A DNA stretch of 64,000 nt. Source: the human T2T-CHM13v2.0 reference genome, Homo sapiens. The position numbers and the translations under genes were made by a program. The DNA lies in the NCBI RefSeq assembly GCF_009914755.1, contig NC_060938.1; one strand, written 5' to 3'. Positions 18,667 through 55,574 of this stretch are shown one piece after another; position 1 is the stretch's first letter, and each line of letters starts with the position of its first letter. The notes under the pieces were generated by a model, which had not been told where the DNA came from, ran no database searches, and was given only the letters and a program-made list of their open reading frames with translations.

Positions 18667-19068
18667 GTTGGTGGGGAATGAAGAGAGAGGATTTAATTGC
18701 CAAGATGATTACAGATTAAGCTACAAAAAGCAAGAGAGCTATTGGTCTGAAACTGTGTTGTGTCTGTAGAGTGCACTCTGATTCACAGAAAATTTTGTCA
18801 ACATTAAATGCGATGGGAGTTGAGTTTTCAGAGGTGGTAACTATGAAGGGGTTGGTTATGTAATGCTGTGCACATATTAGAGCAACAGGCAGTGCTCTCG
18901 CACTGCTTTTACCTGGATTTATAAAATGCCCAGTCCTTATACTCTTGAGCATGACCAGATCCATTTCCTGTTTTTTTCACATTTCTTTTTCTAAGAATAA
19001 ACAGAATCCTAGGAAGGGAAGGTAGCTTCAAATACAAGCCATTTTAAGTATCCTGGTCTCTTAATTCC

Positions 19069-19244
19069 TTTTTTATTTTTTTTTGGATGACTTGAGGACA
19101 ATAAGGTGTTTGTTTATTTATTTATTTATTTTGGTTTTAAGGAGCAGAGAGTTTAATAGGCAAGAAGGAAGGAAGAAGACAGAAGGAAGAAGCTCCCCCG
19201 TACAGAGACAGATGGGGGCTCCAAAACTGAAAGAGGAGATCCCC
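19069..19244 (-). mobile_element. Retroposed ERV1-LTR R-region RNA (MER61/LTR9-group-like) with two A-tails and TSDs
   Basis: Minus strand reads GGGGATCTCC...GCCTATTAAACTCTCTGCTCCTTAAAACC, then AAAATAAATAAATAAATAAACAAA, a 24-nt unique piece, then A9TA6; TSD ctcttaattc at 19058-19067 and 19245-19254. Confidence 0.8.
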
Positions 19245-22215
19245 CTCTTAATTCTTAAACTATTTTTAAAATGAATGTTGACTTTCCTGAAGTTATAAAC
19301 TGTTTTTAACTCTTATCAGTCCTCCTTGATTTTCCTTGTTCAGGTTCCATCTTTTTAACATCCTTTCCTCTCGCAGTAACTACAGCATGATTTGTTTTAC
19401 CCCTCAGCACTCAGCTATCACAGTCATAGCTCTCTCAGCTGAGCAACCTCTCCCTCAATCTTACAAACAGTAGGCATCCACAAGGGAGTCAAAGAAAGGG
19501 TCTCTGAGCTGCCACACACTCATAAGAGGCCTCCTTAGTCCTACTCCCAGGACACATTTGTTCTTGTTTATGGATGATTCTTAACTGGCTGATTATCCCA
19601 TTTCTATTTCAGTAGCCAATTTAAAAGCAGAAAATTAGATGTGGAAAATTGTACTTAGGTTGGTAAACTGAAAAATGACACGACATGCCTTGACTCTATT
19701 CAGTTAGAGTCATTTATTTATTTTTACATGTTTGTAACTTGCCCCATTCCACAGCGGACTTGAGGCAGCTGACATTCTTACAGAAAGAGTCCCTTGTTAT
19801 GTCTTTAATGGATGCAGCCTCCTTAAAACAGCTCAGGATTGAAAAAACTCTTGTGCAGAACAGTTAATTGAAGTGTTCTGCTAACATTTTTTGTTGCTTT
19901 ATTAATGCTTGCCCTGGGAATCATATCATAAACAGTTTGGGTAAACAATAAGTTAACAACACTGAGAATTTTCCTGTTTCACCAAACGTGTCTTATCTAC
20001 AGGCTGCAGACATTCAGCATTACCTTGTCCCTTGCTTCTGTTCTCTTTATAAAGCTCTGGACAAGAGGCACACAACAGACATGTCCCAGCTGCTGACTCA
20101 GTGTGACAGAGCACTGTTGCCAGTGCCCAGGTGACTGCAGTGGGCCACACTGCAGGATTGATGGCTTAACTCTCTGTAGCTTCCAAATCAGATTATTTTC
20201 ATTTGCGCAAAGGCACACCAGCAGGGGTGTGTACTGTTTGACGCACAGATGACAATCTGGCCGGAAGCTAGTACTTGGGGAAAAAAATAAGGGAAAGGAA
20301 AATGATAGTTTTGAAACAACATAGTTATAAAACACAGCATGTATCTATATTTTTCTTCTGAAAAATGTGAAAATTTTCACCCTGGAAAAATACCCAGAAA
20401 CCAAGCAATAGCTTCCCTGTGTTTTGGCATTTATATAACAGTTTGTATAAAAGGACAACGCTGATTCCAATACTACGTGTGATTGTGCCAAAAAATCATG
20501 AGATGAAACAATCAGTATGTTTGCACTTTTGGTTTGAAATTTTTTAAGAGTATAACAATGAAAAGCAAAAAAGGAGGGAGTGAAAGAAGAATCTGCCCTA
20601 CAGTTGAAGAGCACAGGGGAGGTGGCATAGATTGAAAAGCCAGGTGTCTGCACAACCAATGGTTAGAGAACCACCACCAAGATGAGGAGGTGAAGGAGAT
20701 TAGCATGAAGATGGGGAGTAGGAAGGAGGAAATGCCGCGAAATGGTGCCAACTTGTTTGACTAAAATTCAGAATCCTACAAGGACTTCCAGAAAATATAA
20801 ACAGCTGCACAGTTTGAATTATATACTTCCTACATTTCTTCAGTTTTCAGAAGCACGTGATTCTGTCCTTTCAGCAGTGCTGTGAAGGAGAGGAGGCACA
20901 TAGCCCTCGTTTATAAGCCAGGTGACCGTTAGGCCTCATGACATTCTGTGCCATGGACAGCTGTAACAGACTGGAGACAAAGCCGTGCCTCCACCTGCAA
21001 AACTGGCCATGCTTTCTAGAAAGCCGAAGTTGCATTTCATAGACTGCACCAGAGGCTGTAATACCCACTTCTAAAAAGAACAAACACTTTGTGAGGCACT
21101 GAATTTAGGCCATTGGGAAGGAGAGGAAGGGCCTACCTAAGGAGGATCTGTGCCCAGGAAGTGTTGCTCAGTCCCTGAGACATTAATAGGAGGGAGTTCA
21201 GGTAAGGCAGCCAGTGGTCACTTGGAGAAAGGAGGATAAGTGGGTTCGAGGCATCAGCTTGCCCTGGACCTGCAGTGTTGGCAGCAGGTTCCAAGGATTT
21301 GCCTGCCAGCTGTTGAGGCTAAAAATCTAGGAATAGGCACATGGTTTTCCAACCCCCTGTACTCCACCTAACACAGTGCTCAGGAATAATTATTTCATTT
21401 TATAAAACAAACTGCAGAAGACTTGTATTTGCCAGATCCCAAATTGGAAATGAGTGTCTTCTCTAAAACTCCTTTGTCTGACTGCCAAGGTAACTAGACT
21501 TATCACGATGAGAGACTAAGCCAAAACACACACCCATAGGGGCCCAGCATACTGTTTTAAGAGTTCTCCCTTTTTGTGTAGATGCTCAAAGGGAAATTGT
21601 ACTTACGGAAACCTTCAGCTGTCTGAAACCATCGGTGAATGGGTGATTCTATAGAGAAGAGTTTTATAAATAGTTGATAATTTAAATGTTCAAATTTTAT
21701 TTTAACCTTCTTTTGCATGGTTATGGCCTCCCTTGAGACGAATTGCTTGGTTCCTTTTGTGTGAAAGAGGGATAACAACCCTCAACTGGGAGAATACTGA
21801 TGAGCTTAGCATACGTATCCTGATAACATGTGACAGCCACGAGAGGAACTCCATGAAGTTTAGCTTCCTGCCTCTTGCCAGCCTCGAAGAGACTACACAG
21901 CAAGAAGTCCTTGACTTGAATAACAGTTATTTTGTGTTAAGGTAGATTTCCTCTATGCACAATGGCCCTAGGCTGCTATTCTTTTTTAGCTTTGGACTTT
22001 TTTTTTTTTTTAATAGTTTTTCCACCTCCTTTTCTTAGTTTTGAAAAAAAGTGTACTGATAAAAAACTTTACCAACTTCCTGCTGTATTATGCTAGAAGC
22101 TTTATCTGTGTCACCTCATTTAATCTTCATGGCAAGATGTCTTTTTCATTGGTCTGCATATGTGTGGCTTAATTAAATCATTTCGTAGCTGTGATTCGTT
22201 TTTTCCAAATTCCAG

Positions 22216-51165: not shown

Positions 51166-52610
51166 AGAGCCAAGTTGACATTGTTACTTCTTCTGCCTCC
51201 TTCCATTCACAGATGCAATTATCCTCCTAGGAAGATAGTAGCATAATATTTGTGTAGCACTTTGAACTTAAAAAGCCAAGCTTATTTTCTTATTTTATTT
51301 TATCCCTGCAACAATCCTGTAAGGCGAGCAGGGTAGTTGCTGAGTCTTTACAGTCAAGTGTTCTAGTACGCGAAGCTTAAATGACTTAAGATCAAGCAGC
51401 CGTAGTTTCTGCTGAGTATTCTGTTTGATCCTTGCAGCAGTTCGTTATTGTTACCCTGTTGGTTGATTGTTGTGATGCAGGGAGGTGGAGTGACACACTT
51501 GTGTGCTCATGGTTGGTATGTAGTGCACTTGTAATTGTGAGCCCCTGTTTGATTCCACACCCTGTTTCAGTCTCGTCATACCCTGCAGCCTCTGCAATTG
51601 GTAAGCAAAATCAAGTCCAAAACCCAAGTTTTTGACACGAACTACTCTTGGAAAGAGGCTGCTAAGCATAAATGTTGGGGGACATTACATCTAAAATGTT
51701 AGCTGTGCTAATTATTTAAAGCTAGCATAGCATAGCATATCAGGACAAGTTGTTAAAGCTTCACATCAAGAGTAGTCACTTGGGATGTTTTAGCTATTCA
51801 ATTTGTATTCATCTTGGATTCTTATCTAGATTGACATGACAGCTTGAGGTGCCAAACGTATACACCGTAATTCTTTTTTTTAATAGTGAAGCATAAATGG
51901 ATTATGATGTAGGACTTTGAGAATTGTTATTAGGTGAGTTTGACAATAGCACAGGGTAATAATGTCTCAGACACCTAGGATACTTGGGAGAATAGGGTAT
52001 TCTGCTTCAATAATTTGTTTGTTCAGCAAACACTGAATGCTCTCTGTACCAGAAATTGTGCAGTAAGGAGGTAACAATTCATAGTCAAGTAAATATAGTT
52101 GTCATAGCCTAGGGTAAGGGTGCTATAACAGTAGCCAGACTTGATAAAAAGGAGTTTAGGCCTTTAAAATTATTTTCATAGCTAATGGTAGCACACTCCT
52201 GTTTTAGAGTAATATTTCCCAAAGCAGAGGTGTTCCTATACCTTGTTCATCAATATCACAATGTCTTACTGGGACACCTGTTGTATGTAAACTACTGTAA
52301 CCCATTCTGTTACTTGCCAAATCAAGAAGCTTTGAAAGAAGTCTTAGAAAATATAGTTGTAAAGTTATTTATATAAAATCACATTTAACCTGTAATGTAT
52401 TGTAAGATGAGTGTTGGTGAAACACCTTCTTTGTCTGGGGAATAACCTGTGGTTTGTTGCCTTGAGCCAGGAAAGAATTCAGAACATGGACACATGGGTG
52501 GGTTAAGGAGCAGGAAGTTTAGTAGTGGAAAGGTGAGAGGAAGAGGAGAACAGCTTCTTGCAAGAGAGAGGAGATAGAGGGAGAGCGAGACGTCTGGAAA
52601 AAAGGAGGAT

Positions 52611-55574
52611 CAATAACAAGTTCTGAAATTGAGGCAGTAATTAATATCCTACCAACCAAAAAAAGCCCAGGACCAGATGGATTCACAGCCAAATTCTACC
52701 AGAGGTATAAAGAGGAGCTGGTACCATTCCTTCTGAAAGTATTCCGAACAATAGAAAAAGAGGGACTCCTCCCCAACTCATTCTATGAGGCCAGCATTAT
52801 CCTGATACCAAAACCTGGCAGAGACACAACAAAAAAGGAAAATTTCAGGCCAGTATCCCTGATGAACATCTATGTGAAAATCCTCAGTAAAATACTGGCA
52901 AACAGAATCCAGCAGCACATCAAAATCCACCATGATCAAGTCAGCTTCATCCCTGGGATGCAAGGCTGGTTCAACATATGCAAATCAATAAACGTAATCC
53001 ATCACATAAACAGAACCAATGACAAAAACCACATGATTGTCTCCGTAGATGCAGAAAAGGCCATCGATAAAATTCATCACCTCTTCATGCTAAAAACTCT
53101 CAATAAACTAGGTATTGATGGATGTATCTCAAAATAATAAGAGCTGTTTATGACAAACCCACAGCCAATGTCACACTGAATGGGCCAAAGCTGGAAGCAT
53201 TCCCTTTGAAAGCCAGCACAAGACAACGATGACTTCTCTCACCAGTCCTATTCAATATAGTATTGGAAGTTCTGTCCAGGGCAATCAGGCAAGATAAAGA
53301 AATAAAGCGTATTCAATTAGGAAAATAGGAAGTCACATTGCCTCTGTTTGCAGATGACATGATTGTATATTTAGAAAACCCCATGATTTCAGACCCAAAC
53401 TCCTTAAGGTGATAAGCAACTTCAGCAAAGTCTTAGGATACAAAATCAATGTGCAAAAATCAGAAGCATTCCTATACACCAATAACAGACAAACAGAGAG
53501 CCAAATCATGAGTGAACACCCATTCACAATTGCTGCTAAGAGAATAAAATACCTAGGAATACAACTTACAAGGGATGTGAATGATCTCTTCAAGGAGAAC
53601 TACAAACCACTGCTCAAGGAAATAAGAGTGGACACAAGCAAACGGAAAAACATTCCACGCTCATGGATAGGAAGACTCAATATCGTGAAAATGGCCATAC
53701 TGCCCAAAAGATTCAGTGCTATCCCCATCAAGCTACCAGTGACTTTCTTCACAGAATTGGGAAAAAAAACTACTTTAAATTTCATATGGAACAAAAAAAG
53801 AGCCCAGATAGCCAAGACAATTCTAAGCAAAAAGAACAAAGCTAGAGGCATCACACTACCTGACTTCAAACTATACTACAAGGCTACAATAACCAAGACA
53901 GGATGGTACTGGTACCAAAACAGATACATAGACCAATGAAACAGAACAGAAGCTTCAGAAATAATACCACACATCTACAACCATCTGATCTTTGACAAAC
54001 CTGACAAAAGCAATGGGGAAAGGATTTCCTACTTAATAAATGATGTTGGCCAGGCGTGGTGGCTCACGCCTGTAATCCCAACACTTTAGGAGGCCAAGGC
54101 AGGCAGATCACGAGGTCAAGAGATCAAGACCATCCTGGCCAACATGGTGAAACCCCGTCTCTACCAAATATACAAAAATTAGCTGGGCATGGTGGTGCAC
54201 ACCTGTAGTCCCAGCTATTCGGAAGGCTGGGGCAGGAGAATTGCTTGAACCTGGGAGGCAGAGGTTGTAGTGAGCTGAGATGCGCCACTGCACTCCAGCC
54301 TGGTGACAGAGCAAGACTCCATCTCAAAAAAAAAAAAAAAAATGGTGTTGGGAAAACTGGCTAGCCCTATGCAGAAAGCTGAAACTGGACCCCTTCCTTA
54401 AACCTTATACAAAAATTAACTCAAGCTGGACTAAAGACTTAAACATAAGACCTAAAACCATAAAAACCCTAGAAGAAAACCCAAGCAATACCATTCAGGG
54501 CATAGGCGTGGGCAAAGACTTCATGACTAAAACAACAAAAGCAATAGCAACAAAAGCCAAAATTGACAAATGGGATCTAAGTAAACTAAAGAGCTTCTGC
54601 ACAGCAAAGAAACTATCATCAGAGTGAACAGGCAACCTACAGAATGGGAGAAAATTTTTGCAATCTTTCCCGTCTGACAAAGGGCTAATATCCAGAATCT
54701 ACAAGGAACTTAAACAAATTTACAAGAAAAAAACAACCCTATCAAAAAGTGGGCGAAGGATATGAACAGACACTTCTCAAAAGAAGACATTTATGCAGCC
54801 AACAAATACGAAAAAATTTCCATTATCACTGGTCATCAGAGAAATGCAAATCAAAACCACAATGAGATACCATCTCACACCAGTTAGAGTGGCGACCATT
54901 ACAAAGTCAAGAAACAACAGATGCTGGAGAGGATGTGGAGTAATGGGAACGCTTTTACACTGTTGGTGGGAGTGTAAATTAGTTCAATCATTGTGAAAGA
55001 CAGTGTGGCAATTCCTCAAGGATCTAGAATCAGAAATACCATTTGACCCAGCAATCCCATTATTGGTTATATACCCAAAGGATTATAAGTCATTCTACTA
55101 TAAAGACACATGCACACATTTGTTTATTGCAGCACTATTTACAATAGCAAAGACTTGGAACCAACCCAAATGCCCATCAGTGATAGACTGTATAAAGAAA
55201 ATGTGGCACATATACACCATAGAATACTATGCAGCCATAGAAAAGGATGAATTCATGTCTTTTGCAGGGACATGAATGAAGCTGGAAACCATCATTCTCA
55301 GCAGACTAACACAGGAACAGAAAACCAAACACCACATATTCTCACTCATAAGTGGGAGTTGAACATTGAGAATGCATGGACACAGGGAGGGAAACATCAT
55401 GCACCAGGGCCTGTCGGGGTGGGGGTCTAGGGGAGGGATGGCATTAGGAGAAATACCTAATGTAGATGACAGGTTGATGGGTGCAGCAAACCACCATAGC
55501 ACATGTATGCCTATGTAACAAACCTGCATGTTGTGCACATGTATCCCAGAACCTAAAGTATAATTTTTTAAAAA
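52611..55574 (+). mobile_element. 5'-truncated L1PA7-like LINE-1 (RT to 3'UTR)
   Basis: ORF2 RT and C-terminal homology with stops and frameshifts; 3'UTR gtagatgacaggttgatgggtgcagcaaaccaccat...tatcccagaacctaaagtataa. Confidence 0.93.
54048..54342 (+). mobile_element. AluSc inserted in the L1PA7
   Basis: gatcacgaggtcaagagatcaagaccatcctggccaac and agcctggtgacagagc (Sc-type diagnostics); TSD aaatgatgtt/aaatggtgtt. Confidence 0.93.

What the first reader, a model, noticed from the sequence alone, without database searches (positions are those of the whole stretch)
19058..19254. A 112-nt LTR R-region RNA retroposed like a SINE, with signs of second-generation mobilisation
Seen (minus strand): TSD; a 112-nt body starting GGGGATCTCC, with a GC hairpin (GAGCCCCC...GGGGGAGCT) and an ATTAAA signal 19 nt before its end; tail 1 (AAAATAAATAAATAAATAAACAAA); 24 unique nt (CACCTTATTGTCCTCAAGTCATCC); tail 2 (A9TA6); TSD. 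The target reads TT/AAGA, close to the L1 endonuclease consensus TT/AAAA. The body resembles the poly(A)-signal region of the ERV1 solo LTR in this window (ttaaggagcag..agttta.tag at 19137 vs 52503), but has no U3, U5, TG/CA ends or 4-bp TSD. Established: a poly(A) tail plus a ~10-15 bp TSD at TT/AAAA marks L1-mediated TPRT, and unique sequence between two tails marks 3' transduction. Inference: a short start-to-poly(A) transcript of an LTR was retroposed by L1. The donor was itself an earlier tailed retrocopy, read through and re-polyadenylated ~25-30 nt after an AATAAA in its own tail. That would be an LTR-derived, SINE-like family with secondary source copies, which standard annotation would probably label as a plain LTR fragment.
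Basis: partly seen in the sequence, partly recalled or inferred. Interest (0 to 1): 0.85.

Follow-up and report, generated by a model that had tools for sequence, protein, structure and literature searches.

The report
LTR R-region retrocopy with traced donor
This is a fossil copy of a very short RNA made from the promoter end of an old retrovirus-like repeat, pasted into chromosome 14 by the LINE-1 machinery, and its parent on chromosome 7, itself a LINE-1-made copy, can still be identified.

Summary
The 112-nt body (19244-19133, minus strand) is exactly the R region of an ERV1-type LTR family. Its 5' end is the U3/R boundary and its 3' end is the R/U5 boundary of full LTR copies elsewhere in the genome.

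LINE-1 mobilised this family widely. Among 108 R-bearing loci read, 22 are R-only with a tail (19 independent events), 21 are U3-R-poly(A), 9 are flank-R-U5 (5' ends of processed pseudogenes), 52 are true U3-R-U5 LTRs and 4 are ambiguous.

The donor was found at G000:C7:89.70 Mb. It is a 5'-inverted, truncated LINE-1 retrocopy that keeps about 196 nt of U3 with its TATA box, then R, then an A-rich tail. Directly after that tail comes the native chr7 sequence that reappears as the 24-mer between the two tails on chr14.

So a U3-bearing retrocopy started transcription at R+1, skipped R's ATTAAA and was polyadenylated about 24 nt after an AATAAA in its own tail. LINE-1 then inserted that RNA.

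"SINE-like" does not fully hold, because R-only copies carry no promoter and are dead ends. The family is not HERV-W. It has a tRNA-Gly primer site and no pol. Its Repbase/Dfam name could not be tested.

The parts
19245..19256 (-). 5' target-site duplication: AAGAATTAAGAG, with the exact 10-mer at 19245-19254. It is preceded by TT, giving the nick site TT/AAGA.
19133..19244 (-). R region of an ERV1-type LTR, 112 nt. The 5' end is the transcription start (U3/R boundary) and the 3' end is the LTR's own poly(A) site (R/U5 boundary).
   Evidence: 40 of 40 scored genome hits span about 1-112 at 85-91% identity; in full LTRs U3 abuts the 5' end and U5 the 3' end.
19152..19157 (-). ATTAAA poly(A) signal of R, ending 19 nt before the end of R. 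This transcript skipped it.
   Evidence: The same motif is conserved in all 87 exact 31-mer matches.
19109..19132 (-). Tail 1: a copy of the donor retrocopy's own A-rich tail, carrying AATAAA motifs.
   Evidence: 22 of 23 aligned bases are identical to the chr7 tail.
19085..19108 (-). 3'-transduced 24 nt of chr7 flanking DNA.
   Evidence: 20 of 24 bases are identical to the sequence directly after the chr7 tail. Its first 12 nt lie inside the chr7 element's own TSD.
19069..19084 (-). Tail 2 (A9TA6): the poly(A) tail of the read-through transcript, which primed TPRT.
   Evidence: The alignment to chr7 stops exactly here.
19058..19069 (-). 3' target-site duplication: AGGAATTAAGAG, with the exact 10-mer at 19058-19067. 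Its first A is shared with tail 2.

Best explanation
The element is a LINE-1-made retrocopy of a roughly 160-nt RNA polymerase II transcript. That transcript consisted of the R region of an ERV1-type LTR, plus the A-rich tail of its parent, plus 24 nt of the parent's chr7 flank.

Lineage:
(a) A non-coding LTR element of about 6.5 kb with a tRNA-Gly primer-binding site produced genome-length RNA (R-U5-...-U3-R-An).
(b) LINE-1 copied one such RNA into chr7 (G000:C7 about 89,700,400-89,700,870), truncating and partly inverting its 5' end. This left about 196 nt of U3 (TATA box included), then R, then an A-rich tail, flanked by a 15-nt TSD.
(c) That U3 fired at R+1. The promoter-proximal ATTAAA in R was skipped. 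An AATAAA inside the A-rich tail directed cleavage about 24 nt downstream in chr7 flank.
(d) LINE-1 ORF2p nicked chr14 at TT/AAGA and reverse-transcribed the whole short RNA, creating a 10-12-nt TSD.

The chr14 copy has no U3, so it cannot repeat the cycle. It lies antisense in a PELI2 intron and has no evident function.

Steps (b) and (d) and the chr7-to-chr14 direction are shown by sequence. Step (c) is inferred from the anatomy.
For: R identity. 40 of 40 scored hits (of 461 candidates) cover about 1-112 of the body. In full LTRs U3 ends '...tatatacctggctggtatccgtggcaggt' directly before GGGG, which puts the TATA box about 29 nt upstream. U5 ('actccatgtgtgtcc...tatca', about 85 nt) starts directly after TTAAAACC.

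The LINE-1 route in this family. Three full-length processed pseudogenes (R-U5...U3-R-An) are collinear over about 6.5 kb at 85-89% identity. Across the 108 loci read: R-only 22 loci (19 independent events), U3-R-pA 21, flank-R-U5 9, U3-R-U5 52, ambiguous 4.

TSDs of 12 nt or more: 10 of 19 R-only events, against 20 of 342 mismatched flank pairs.

Donor. A 100-nt query (end of R + tail 1 + 24-mer + tail 2) hit C7:89700796-89700880 over query 1-83 at 89%. The next best hits stop at query 52-63.
- Read-out: U3, R, tail AAAAAAATAAAAAATAAATAAATAAA, then CACTTTATTGTCTTTAAGTCATCAATC.
- The chr7 element's own TSD, AAACACTTTATTGTC, appears upstream at L116 1107-1121 and overlaps the first 12 nt of the 24-mer. 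That sequence is therefore native to chr7.
- The global alignment of chr14 to chr7 gives 140 of 159 bases identical (88.1%); 15 of the 19 differences are transitions. It ends at GTCATC, where chr14 turns into poly(A).
- Donor U3: a direct piece of about 196 nt plus an inverted piece further upstream.
- The other genome hits to the 24-mer or 23-mer (L010, L011, L151) carry no R and occur at background frequency (16 against 29 control matches).
Against: - R of the chr14 copy is 87.5% identical to the donor's R, but 90-91% identical to several other copies. No shared diagnostic substitution within R was found. The link rests on the tail plus flank.
- The last base of the 24-mer differs (C on chr14, A on chr7), and 3 further transitions separate the two 24-mers.
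- No other primate genome was available, so the order and dates of the two insertions were not checked against empty sites.
- No expression data show that the chr7 U3 ever fired at R+1.
- Only this one of the 19 R-only events carries a transduced segment.
Confidence: 0.9

Rival explanations
1. 'Solo R': LINE-1 inserted a full-length processed pseudogene (R-U5-...-U3-R-An) at chr14, and the two 112-nt R repeats later recombined, leaving R plus the tail inside the TSDs.
For: Solo formation was very efficient in this family: only 1 of 52 U3-R-U5 copies is followed by the primer-binding site. Full-length pseudogenes with two R repeats exist. Counts alone (19 R-only events against 9 flank-R-U5) do not exclude this route for the family as a whole.
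Against: For this copy, the parent RNA must have carried the chr7 tail and flank. The chr7 locus holds a single R directly behind U3, with no U5 or internal sequence. A transcript starting at R+1 there is already R-only.

Family level, suggestive only: 3-4 of 19 R-only events have the 'GGGGTCTCC' type of R start. None of the 30 longer retrocopies has it, although solo LTRs do (hypergeometric P about 0.02-0.05 by my own arithmetic).
Confidence: 0.04
2. A longer read-through transcript crossing the chr7 locus from an upstream promoter was retroposed and happened to be 5'-truncated exactly at the U3/R boundary.
For: 5' truncation is common in LINE-1 retrocopies. The chr7 donor is itself truncated.
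Against: The 5' end coincides with the start shared by the 9 flank-R-U5 copies and the other R-only copies (GGGG...). Random truncation would rarely land on that base. The TSD abuts it directly.
Confidence: 0.04
3. Template-switch chimera: LINE-1 RT began on an unrelated polyadenylated RNA, copied only its last 24 nt, then jumped to the tail of an R RNA.
For: Chimeric retrocopies formed by RT template switching are known (recalled from the literature, not checked here).
Against: The order R, then tail, then the same flank exists contiguously in genomic DNA at chr7, so no jump is needed.
Confidence: 0.01
4. A solo LTR that lost U3 and U5 by deletions.
For: None beyond the shared R sequence.
Against: Both ends fall exactly at the RNA ends. 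There are two A-rich tails and a 10-12-nt TSD at a TT/AAGA site, with no TG...CA termini.
Confidence: 0.01

Closest known systems
HERV-W processed pseudogenes (LINE-1-mobilised retroviral RNA; Grandi et al. 2016 PMC5016936 and 2017 PMC5537654, passages read)
   Same: The same hallmarks at family level: R-U5 at the 5' end, U3-R plus poly(A) at the 3' end, 5-15-nt TSDs and TT/AAAA-like sites. Retrocopies outnumber proviruses.
   Different: A different family. R is 112-117 nt and U5 about 85 nt, against R 71 nt (positions 256-326) and U5 454 nt in LTR17. The primer site is tRNA-Gly, not Trp/Arg. Pfam finds no pol. The passages read do not describe R-only copies or a retrocopy acting as a secondary source. 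The 2017 abstract calls HERV-W the sole HERV group mobilised by LINE-1.
3' transduction by LINE-1 and SVA elements (recalled knowledge; no paper read here)
   Same: The element's own poly(A) site is read through, a downstream signal is used, and unique flank lies between two A-tails, which allows the donor to be traced.
   Different: The transcribing unit is a retroviral U3 promoter left in a retrocopy. The downstream signal lies in the retrocopy's own A-rich tail. The mobilised body is only R.
SINEs and SVA (SINE-R)
   Same: Short, non-coding, A-tailed, dependent on LINE-1. SVA also ends in LTR-derived sequence (recalled).
   Different: No internal promoter. No tRNA, 7SL or 5S similarity (ARAGORN 0 genes; Rfam no hit within the element). 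No R-only copy was seen acting as a source.
Solo LTR formation by LTR-LTR recombination
   Same: It would give a single repeat unit inside the original TSDs. This is the rival route for R-only copies in general.
   Different: The repeat would be 112 nt of R inside a LINE-1 TSD, not a full LTR inside a 4-6-nt integrase TSD. It is excluded for this copy by the donor's structure.
Repbase HUERSP-group entries, e.g. HERVG25/LTR25-int with LTR25 (table in PMC5753468)
   Same: ERV1 class. The name HERVG25 suggests a Gly primer site (naming habit recalled, not verified).
   Different: No repeat library was available, so the assignment is untested.

Membership tests
LINE-1-mediated (TPRT) retrocopy | 3' poly(A) tail | tested here: met
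   A9TA6 at 19084-19069, directly before the 3' TSD.
LINE-1-mediated (TPRT) retrocopy | Target-site duplication of about 7-20 nt flanking the whole insert | tested here: met
   10 nt exact, or 12 nt with 1 mismatch. The 10-mer is found 3 times in the window against 0.34 expected.
LINE-1-mediated (TPRT) retrocopy | Insertion at a TT/AAAA-like endonuclease site | tested here: met
   gtTT/AAGAATTAAGAG.
LINE-1-mediated (TPRT) retrocopy | Empty pre-insertion site in an outgroup | not testable with these tools
   No other primate genome is held (note).
3' transduction | Unique sequence between the element's own tail and a second tail, all inside the TSDs | tested here: met
   24 nt at 19108-19085.
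3' transduction | A donor locus where the same sequence directly follows the source element as native flank | tested here: met
   C7:89700796-89700880. The chr7 TSD overlaps the first 12 nt of the 24-mer.
3' transduction | A poly(A) signal 10-30 nt upstream of the transduced end | tested here: met
   In the donor, AATAAA ends directly before CAC..., 23-24 nt before the point where chr14 turns into poly(A).
HERV-W (LTR17/HERV17) | LTR17 architecture: R about 71 nt and U5 about 454 nt | tested here: not met
   R 112-117 nt and U5 about 85 nt, against the figures quoted in PMC5016936.
HERV-W (LTR17/HERV17) | Trp/Arg-type primer-binding site and a gag-pro-pol-env interior | tested here: not met
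   The PBS matches the 3' end of tRNA-Gly genes. Pfam finds no RT, integrase or protease, only a weak TLV_coat C-terminal hit at E = 1e-4.
SINE | Internal Pol III promoter or a tRNA/7SL/5S-derived head | tested here: not met
   ARAGORN found 0 genes. Rfam found no hit within the element.
SINE | Copies themselves serve as sources | tested here: not met
   The only donor traced carries U3. None of the other 18 R-only events shows a transduction.
Solo LTR | U3-R-U5 with TG...CA ends and a 4-6-nt TSD | tested here: not met
   U3 and U5 are absent. The insert has A-tails and a 10-12-nt TSD.
Repbase/Dfam family name (LTR9/MER61, LTR25/HERVG25, LTR1...) | Match to the library consensus | not testable with these tools
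   No repeat library is held. Only the name table in PMC5753468 was seen.

The most novel reading that the evidence does not exclude
This tRNA-Gly-primed, pol-less ERV1 family may be a second, so far undescribed HERV group that LINE-1 mobilised on a large scale. Most copies that still hold internal sequence are LINE-1 products. Short promoter-proximal 'R RNAs' were a recurrent LINE-1 template, perhaps some 60 copies genome-wide. U3-R-An retrocopies stayed transcriptionally competent and acted as one-step secondary sources. That would contradict the published view of HERV-W as the sole HERV group mobilised by LINE-1. It would also show that 'promoterless' retroviral pseudogenes can seed further insertions.
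Probability: 0.4. Interest if true: 0.7.

Novelty: new variant of a known kind. Interest (0 to 1): 0.58.

Why it matters
Three things follow.

1. Retrocopies of retroviral RNA that keep the 3' U3-R are not necessarily inert. One of them fired from its U3 and produced a daughter insertion.

2. It gives a clean, traceable case that R-only LTR fragments can arise from short LTR-initiated transcripts, not only from deletion or recombination. This affects how such fragments are annotated and dated.

3. The family as a whole shows the same LINE-1 signatures as HERV-W, which reviews call unique in this respect.

The chr14 copy itself is an old, promoterless fossil, antisense in a PELI2 intron. Its divergence from the donor is about 13%. 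With a recalled neutral rate of about 2.2e-9 per site per year that is roughly 30 million years. No function is suggested.

Tried and rejected
- **First donor search.** The exact 24-mer at up to 3 mismatches found only the window itself and two hits without R. The donor has 4 differences, so the longer BLAST-type query was needed.
- **Sibling search.** The chr7 23-mer at up to 3 mismatches gave 16 hits against 29 in the reversed control. Only chr7 and chr14 are meaningful. The 2-mismatch hit on C1 (L151) has no R.
- **RNA structure and RNA families.** The fold gave z = -0.36. Rfam found nothing within the element and ARAGORN found no tRNA.
- **Coding content of the internal region.**
  - 28 ORF pieces of L045, chosen from the 46 plus-strand ORFs of at least 45 aa listed, gave no retroviral domain.
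  - The three forward frames of L046, read with X at stops, gave only a weak TLV_coat tail.
  - A gag-like stretch was noted by eye only.
- **TSD scoring.** At a threshold of 9 nt the finder also 'finds' TSDs in 102 of 342 mismatched flank pairs, because the flanks are A-rich. Only TSDs of 12 nt or more are treated as informative.
- **Locus classification.** The automatic labels were corrected by eye where a U3 variant, a deletion or an Alu insertion misled the script. The script gave fl-R-pA 22, U3-R-U5 44, U3-R-pA 17, fl-R-U5 16 and unclear 9. L050, L056, L062 and L065 stay ambiguous.
- **Family name.** The PBS search, Vargiu 2016 and the Repbase review gave only a candidate name.
- **Literature.** Searches found no report of R-only retrocopies or of LINE-1 mobilising this family. 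Subscription papers (Pavlicek 2002 and Costas 2002 are recalled, not read) and supplementary tables were not seen and may bear on this.
Full report
**1. The observation**

On the minus strand the region reads: TSD, a 112-nt body, A-rich tail 1, 24 unique nt, tail 2, TSD.
- The exact TSD is GAATTAAGAG (19254-19245 and 19067-19058). It extends to 12 nt with one mismatch.
- The site reads TT/AAGA.
- The 10-mer occurs three times in the window against 0.34 expected, and two of the three bound the element.
- The ATTAAA ends 19 nt before the end of the body.
- The 'GC hairpin' is not notable. The RNA folds at -21.7 kcal/mol with z = -0.36 against shuffles, and the best structure does not use those arms.
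- Rfam and ARAGORN find nothing within the element.

**2. What the body is**

The window's own genome could be searched. The 112 nt gave 461 candidates, of which 40 were scored. All 40 cover about positions 1-112 at 85-91% identity.

I read the flanks of all 40. They fall into four arrangements:
- U3-R-U5, true LTRs: 11.
- Flank-R-U5: 3.
- U3-R-poly(A): 11.
- Flank-R-poly(A), i.e. R-only: 15 loci. Four of these (L036, L037, L038, L043) are one insertion copied by segmental duplication, giving 12 independent events.

In LTR copies U3 ends '...catatatacctggctggtatccgtggcaggt' directly before GGGGACC. This puts a TATA box about 29 nt upstream. A U5 of about 85 nt ending ...TATCA starts directly after TTAAAACC. 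The body is therefore the R region: transcription start to poly(A) site.

**3. A less biased sample**

The last 31 nt of R has 404 genome matches at up to 3 mismatches. The reversed control has 0. The tool listed 100 of these, and 87 were exact. All 87 were classified: 19 were already in hand and 68 were fetched.

| Class | Count among the 87 |
|---|---|
| R-only | 13 |
| U3-R-pA | 15 |
| flank-R-U5 | 8 |
| U3-R-U5 | 47 |
| ambiguous (L050, L056, L062, L065) | 4 |

The script's automatic labels were corrected by eye where a U3 variant, a deletion or an Alu insertion misled it.

The two samples together hold 108 distinct loci: R-only 22 loci (19 independent events), U3-R-pA 21, flank-R-U5 9, U3-R-U5 52, ambiguous 4. 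Scaling 13 of 87 to 404 suggests roughly 60 R-only copies. This is a rough figure from a sample biased toward well-kept copies.

**4. LINE-1 signatures in the family**

- Three flank-R-U5 loci pair with U3-R-pA loci 6.4-8.8 kb away. They are collinear over about 6.5 kb at 85-89% identity. One carries a 2.3-kb insertion. These are full-length processed pseudogenes.
- Among the 19 R-only events, a TSD of 12 nt or more adjoins the R start in 10. The same is true for 20 of 342 mismatched flank pairs.
- At a threshold of 9 nt the control rate is 30%, so short A-rich TSDs carry little weight on their own.
- Two events (L076, L083) show no TSD and two (L092, L104) only weak ones.
- Most TSDs begin with A-runs after T, as expected for the LINE-1 endonuclease.

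**5. What kind of retroelement this is**

- After U5 comes TGGTGCATTGGCCGGGAA or a close variant in 7 of 9 flank-R-U5 copies, but in only 1 of 52 U3-R-U5 copies.
- The 15-mer TGCATTGGCCGGGAA lies at the 3' end of genes that ARAGORN calls tRNA-Gly. The primer is therefore tRNA-Gly.
- Pfam finds no reverse transcriptase, integrase or protease in the interior. The only hit is a weak match to the C-terminal end of the gammaretroviral envelope (TLV_coat, E = 1e-4).
- The element is thus a non-autonomous ERV1-type unit. In today's genome nearly all copies that still hold internal sequence are LINE-1 products.
- It is not HERV-W. LTR17 has R at positions 256-326 and U5 at 327-780, with Trp/Arg primer sites (passages of PMC5016936).
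- The Repbase table in PMC5753468 lists HERVG25/LTR25-int with LTR25 in the HUERSP group, next to LTR9 and MER61. The name hints at a Gly primer, but I could not test any library name.

**6. The donor**

The 24-mer alone found nothing useful at up to 3 mismatches. A 100-nt query running from the end of R to tail 2 hit C7:89700796-89700880 over query positions 1-83 at 89%. All other hits stopped at 48-63.

The chr7 locus (L116) reads, in order:
- TSD AAACACTTTATTGTC.
- A 94-nt piece of U3 in inverted orientation.
- About 196 nt of U3 in direct orientation, with the octamer-like, CCAAT and TATA motifs.
- R.
- The tail AAAAAAATAAAAAATAAATAAATAAA.
- The second TSD copy, CACTTTATTGTC preceded by AAA, continuing into TTTAAGTCATCAATC...

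The inverted 5' piece is the pattern expected from twin priming, which is recalled knowledge.

Because the chr7 TSD contains the first 12 nt of the 24-mer, that sequence is native to chr7. The direction is therefore chr7 to chr14.

The global alignment gives 140 of 159 bases identical: R 98 of 112, tail 22 of 23, 24-mer 20 of 24. Fifteen of the 19 differences are transitions. The Jukes-Cantor distance is 0.13. Homology ends at GTCATC, where chr14 becomes poly(A) and chr7 continues as flank.

In the donor the last AATAAA of the tail ends 23-24 nt before that point.

**7. Mechanism**

The donor has one R, directly behind a U3 promoter. A transcript starting at R+1 contains nothing but R, the tail and flank. 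This explains the chr14 insert without recombination, truncation or template jumps.

The read-through of ATTAAA, which lies about 90 nt from the cap, is inferred.

The chr14 copy lacks U3 and cannot repeat the step. The lineage is: provirus or pseudogene RNA, then a U3-R-An retrocopy, then an R-only copy, then nothing further. 'SINE-like' is therefore apt for size, tail and LINE-1 dependence, but not for self-propagation.

**8. The family-level question left open**

R-only copies in general could also be 'solo R' products of recombination between the two R repeats of full-length pseudogenes. The counts do not exclude that.

One hint favours short transcripts. Three or four of the 19 R-only events have the GGGGTCTCC type of R start. 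Solo LTRs have this type, but none of the 30 longer retrocopies does. That is weak evidence. Only this window's copy gives a direct answer.

**9. Comparison with what is in print**

Six searches of the held library returned only HERV-W work for LINE-1-made retroviral pseudogenes. The 2017 review abstract calls HERV-W the sole such group. I saw no description of R-only retrocopies. Subscription papers and supplementary tables were not seen.

**10. Verdict**

This is a real, well-resolved fossil of a two-step LINE-1 event. It is a new variant of a known kind, of moderate interest, with a family-level implication worth a proper census.

Noticed in passing
window 52300-52620 (minus strand), abutting 52606 onward (plus strand): A fragment of a distantly related ERV1 LTR (poly(A)-signal and U5 part; score 75 against shuffles 36.6 +/- 5.8) lies next to sequence that looks by eye like a 5'-truncated LINE-1 ORF2 segment.
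   Followed up: partly
L036, L037, L038 (C22: 21.66, 19.19, 18.99 Mb) and L043 (C1: 116.64 Mb): One R-only insertion is present four times with the same flanks and TSD, so it was carried along by segmental duplications.
   Followed up: no
L098 and L027 (C17:45364989-45366200): A flank-R-U5 end and a U3-R-poly(A) end lie only about 1.2 kb apart, with an Alu in U5. This looks like a processed pseudogene with nearly all internal sequence deleted.
   Followed up: no
L055 (C1:225682756) and C1:225679485: A flank-R-U5 end and a second R match lie about 3.3 kb apart on the same strand, possibly a shortened processed pseudogene.
   Followed up: no
L007, L020, L104: In three tailed copies the A-tail runs straight into the right arm of an Alu ('aaaattagctgggcgtggtgg...'). 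This suggests insertion into the A-rich linker of an Alu.
   Followed up: no
52 U3-R-U5 loci against 9 flank-R-U5 loci: Only 1 of 52 true LTR copies (L087) is followed by the primer-binding site, against 7 of 9 flank-R-U5 copies. Nearly all surviving internal sequence of this family therefore sits in LINE-1-made copies.
   Followed up: partly
L116 1123-1216 (C7:89700418-89700511): The donor carries an inverted piece of U3 just upstream of the direct U3, with about 23 nt missing at the junction. This is the pattern expected from twin priming.
   Followed up: partly
window 19058-19254: The hub's table places this site inside a 47-kb 'exon' of the predicted lncRNA LOC124907396 on the opposite strand. 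An exon of that size looks like a model artefact.
   Followed up: no
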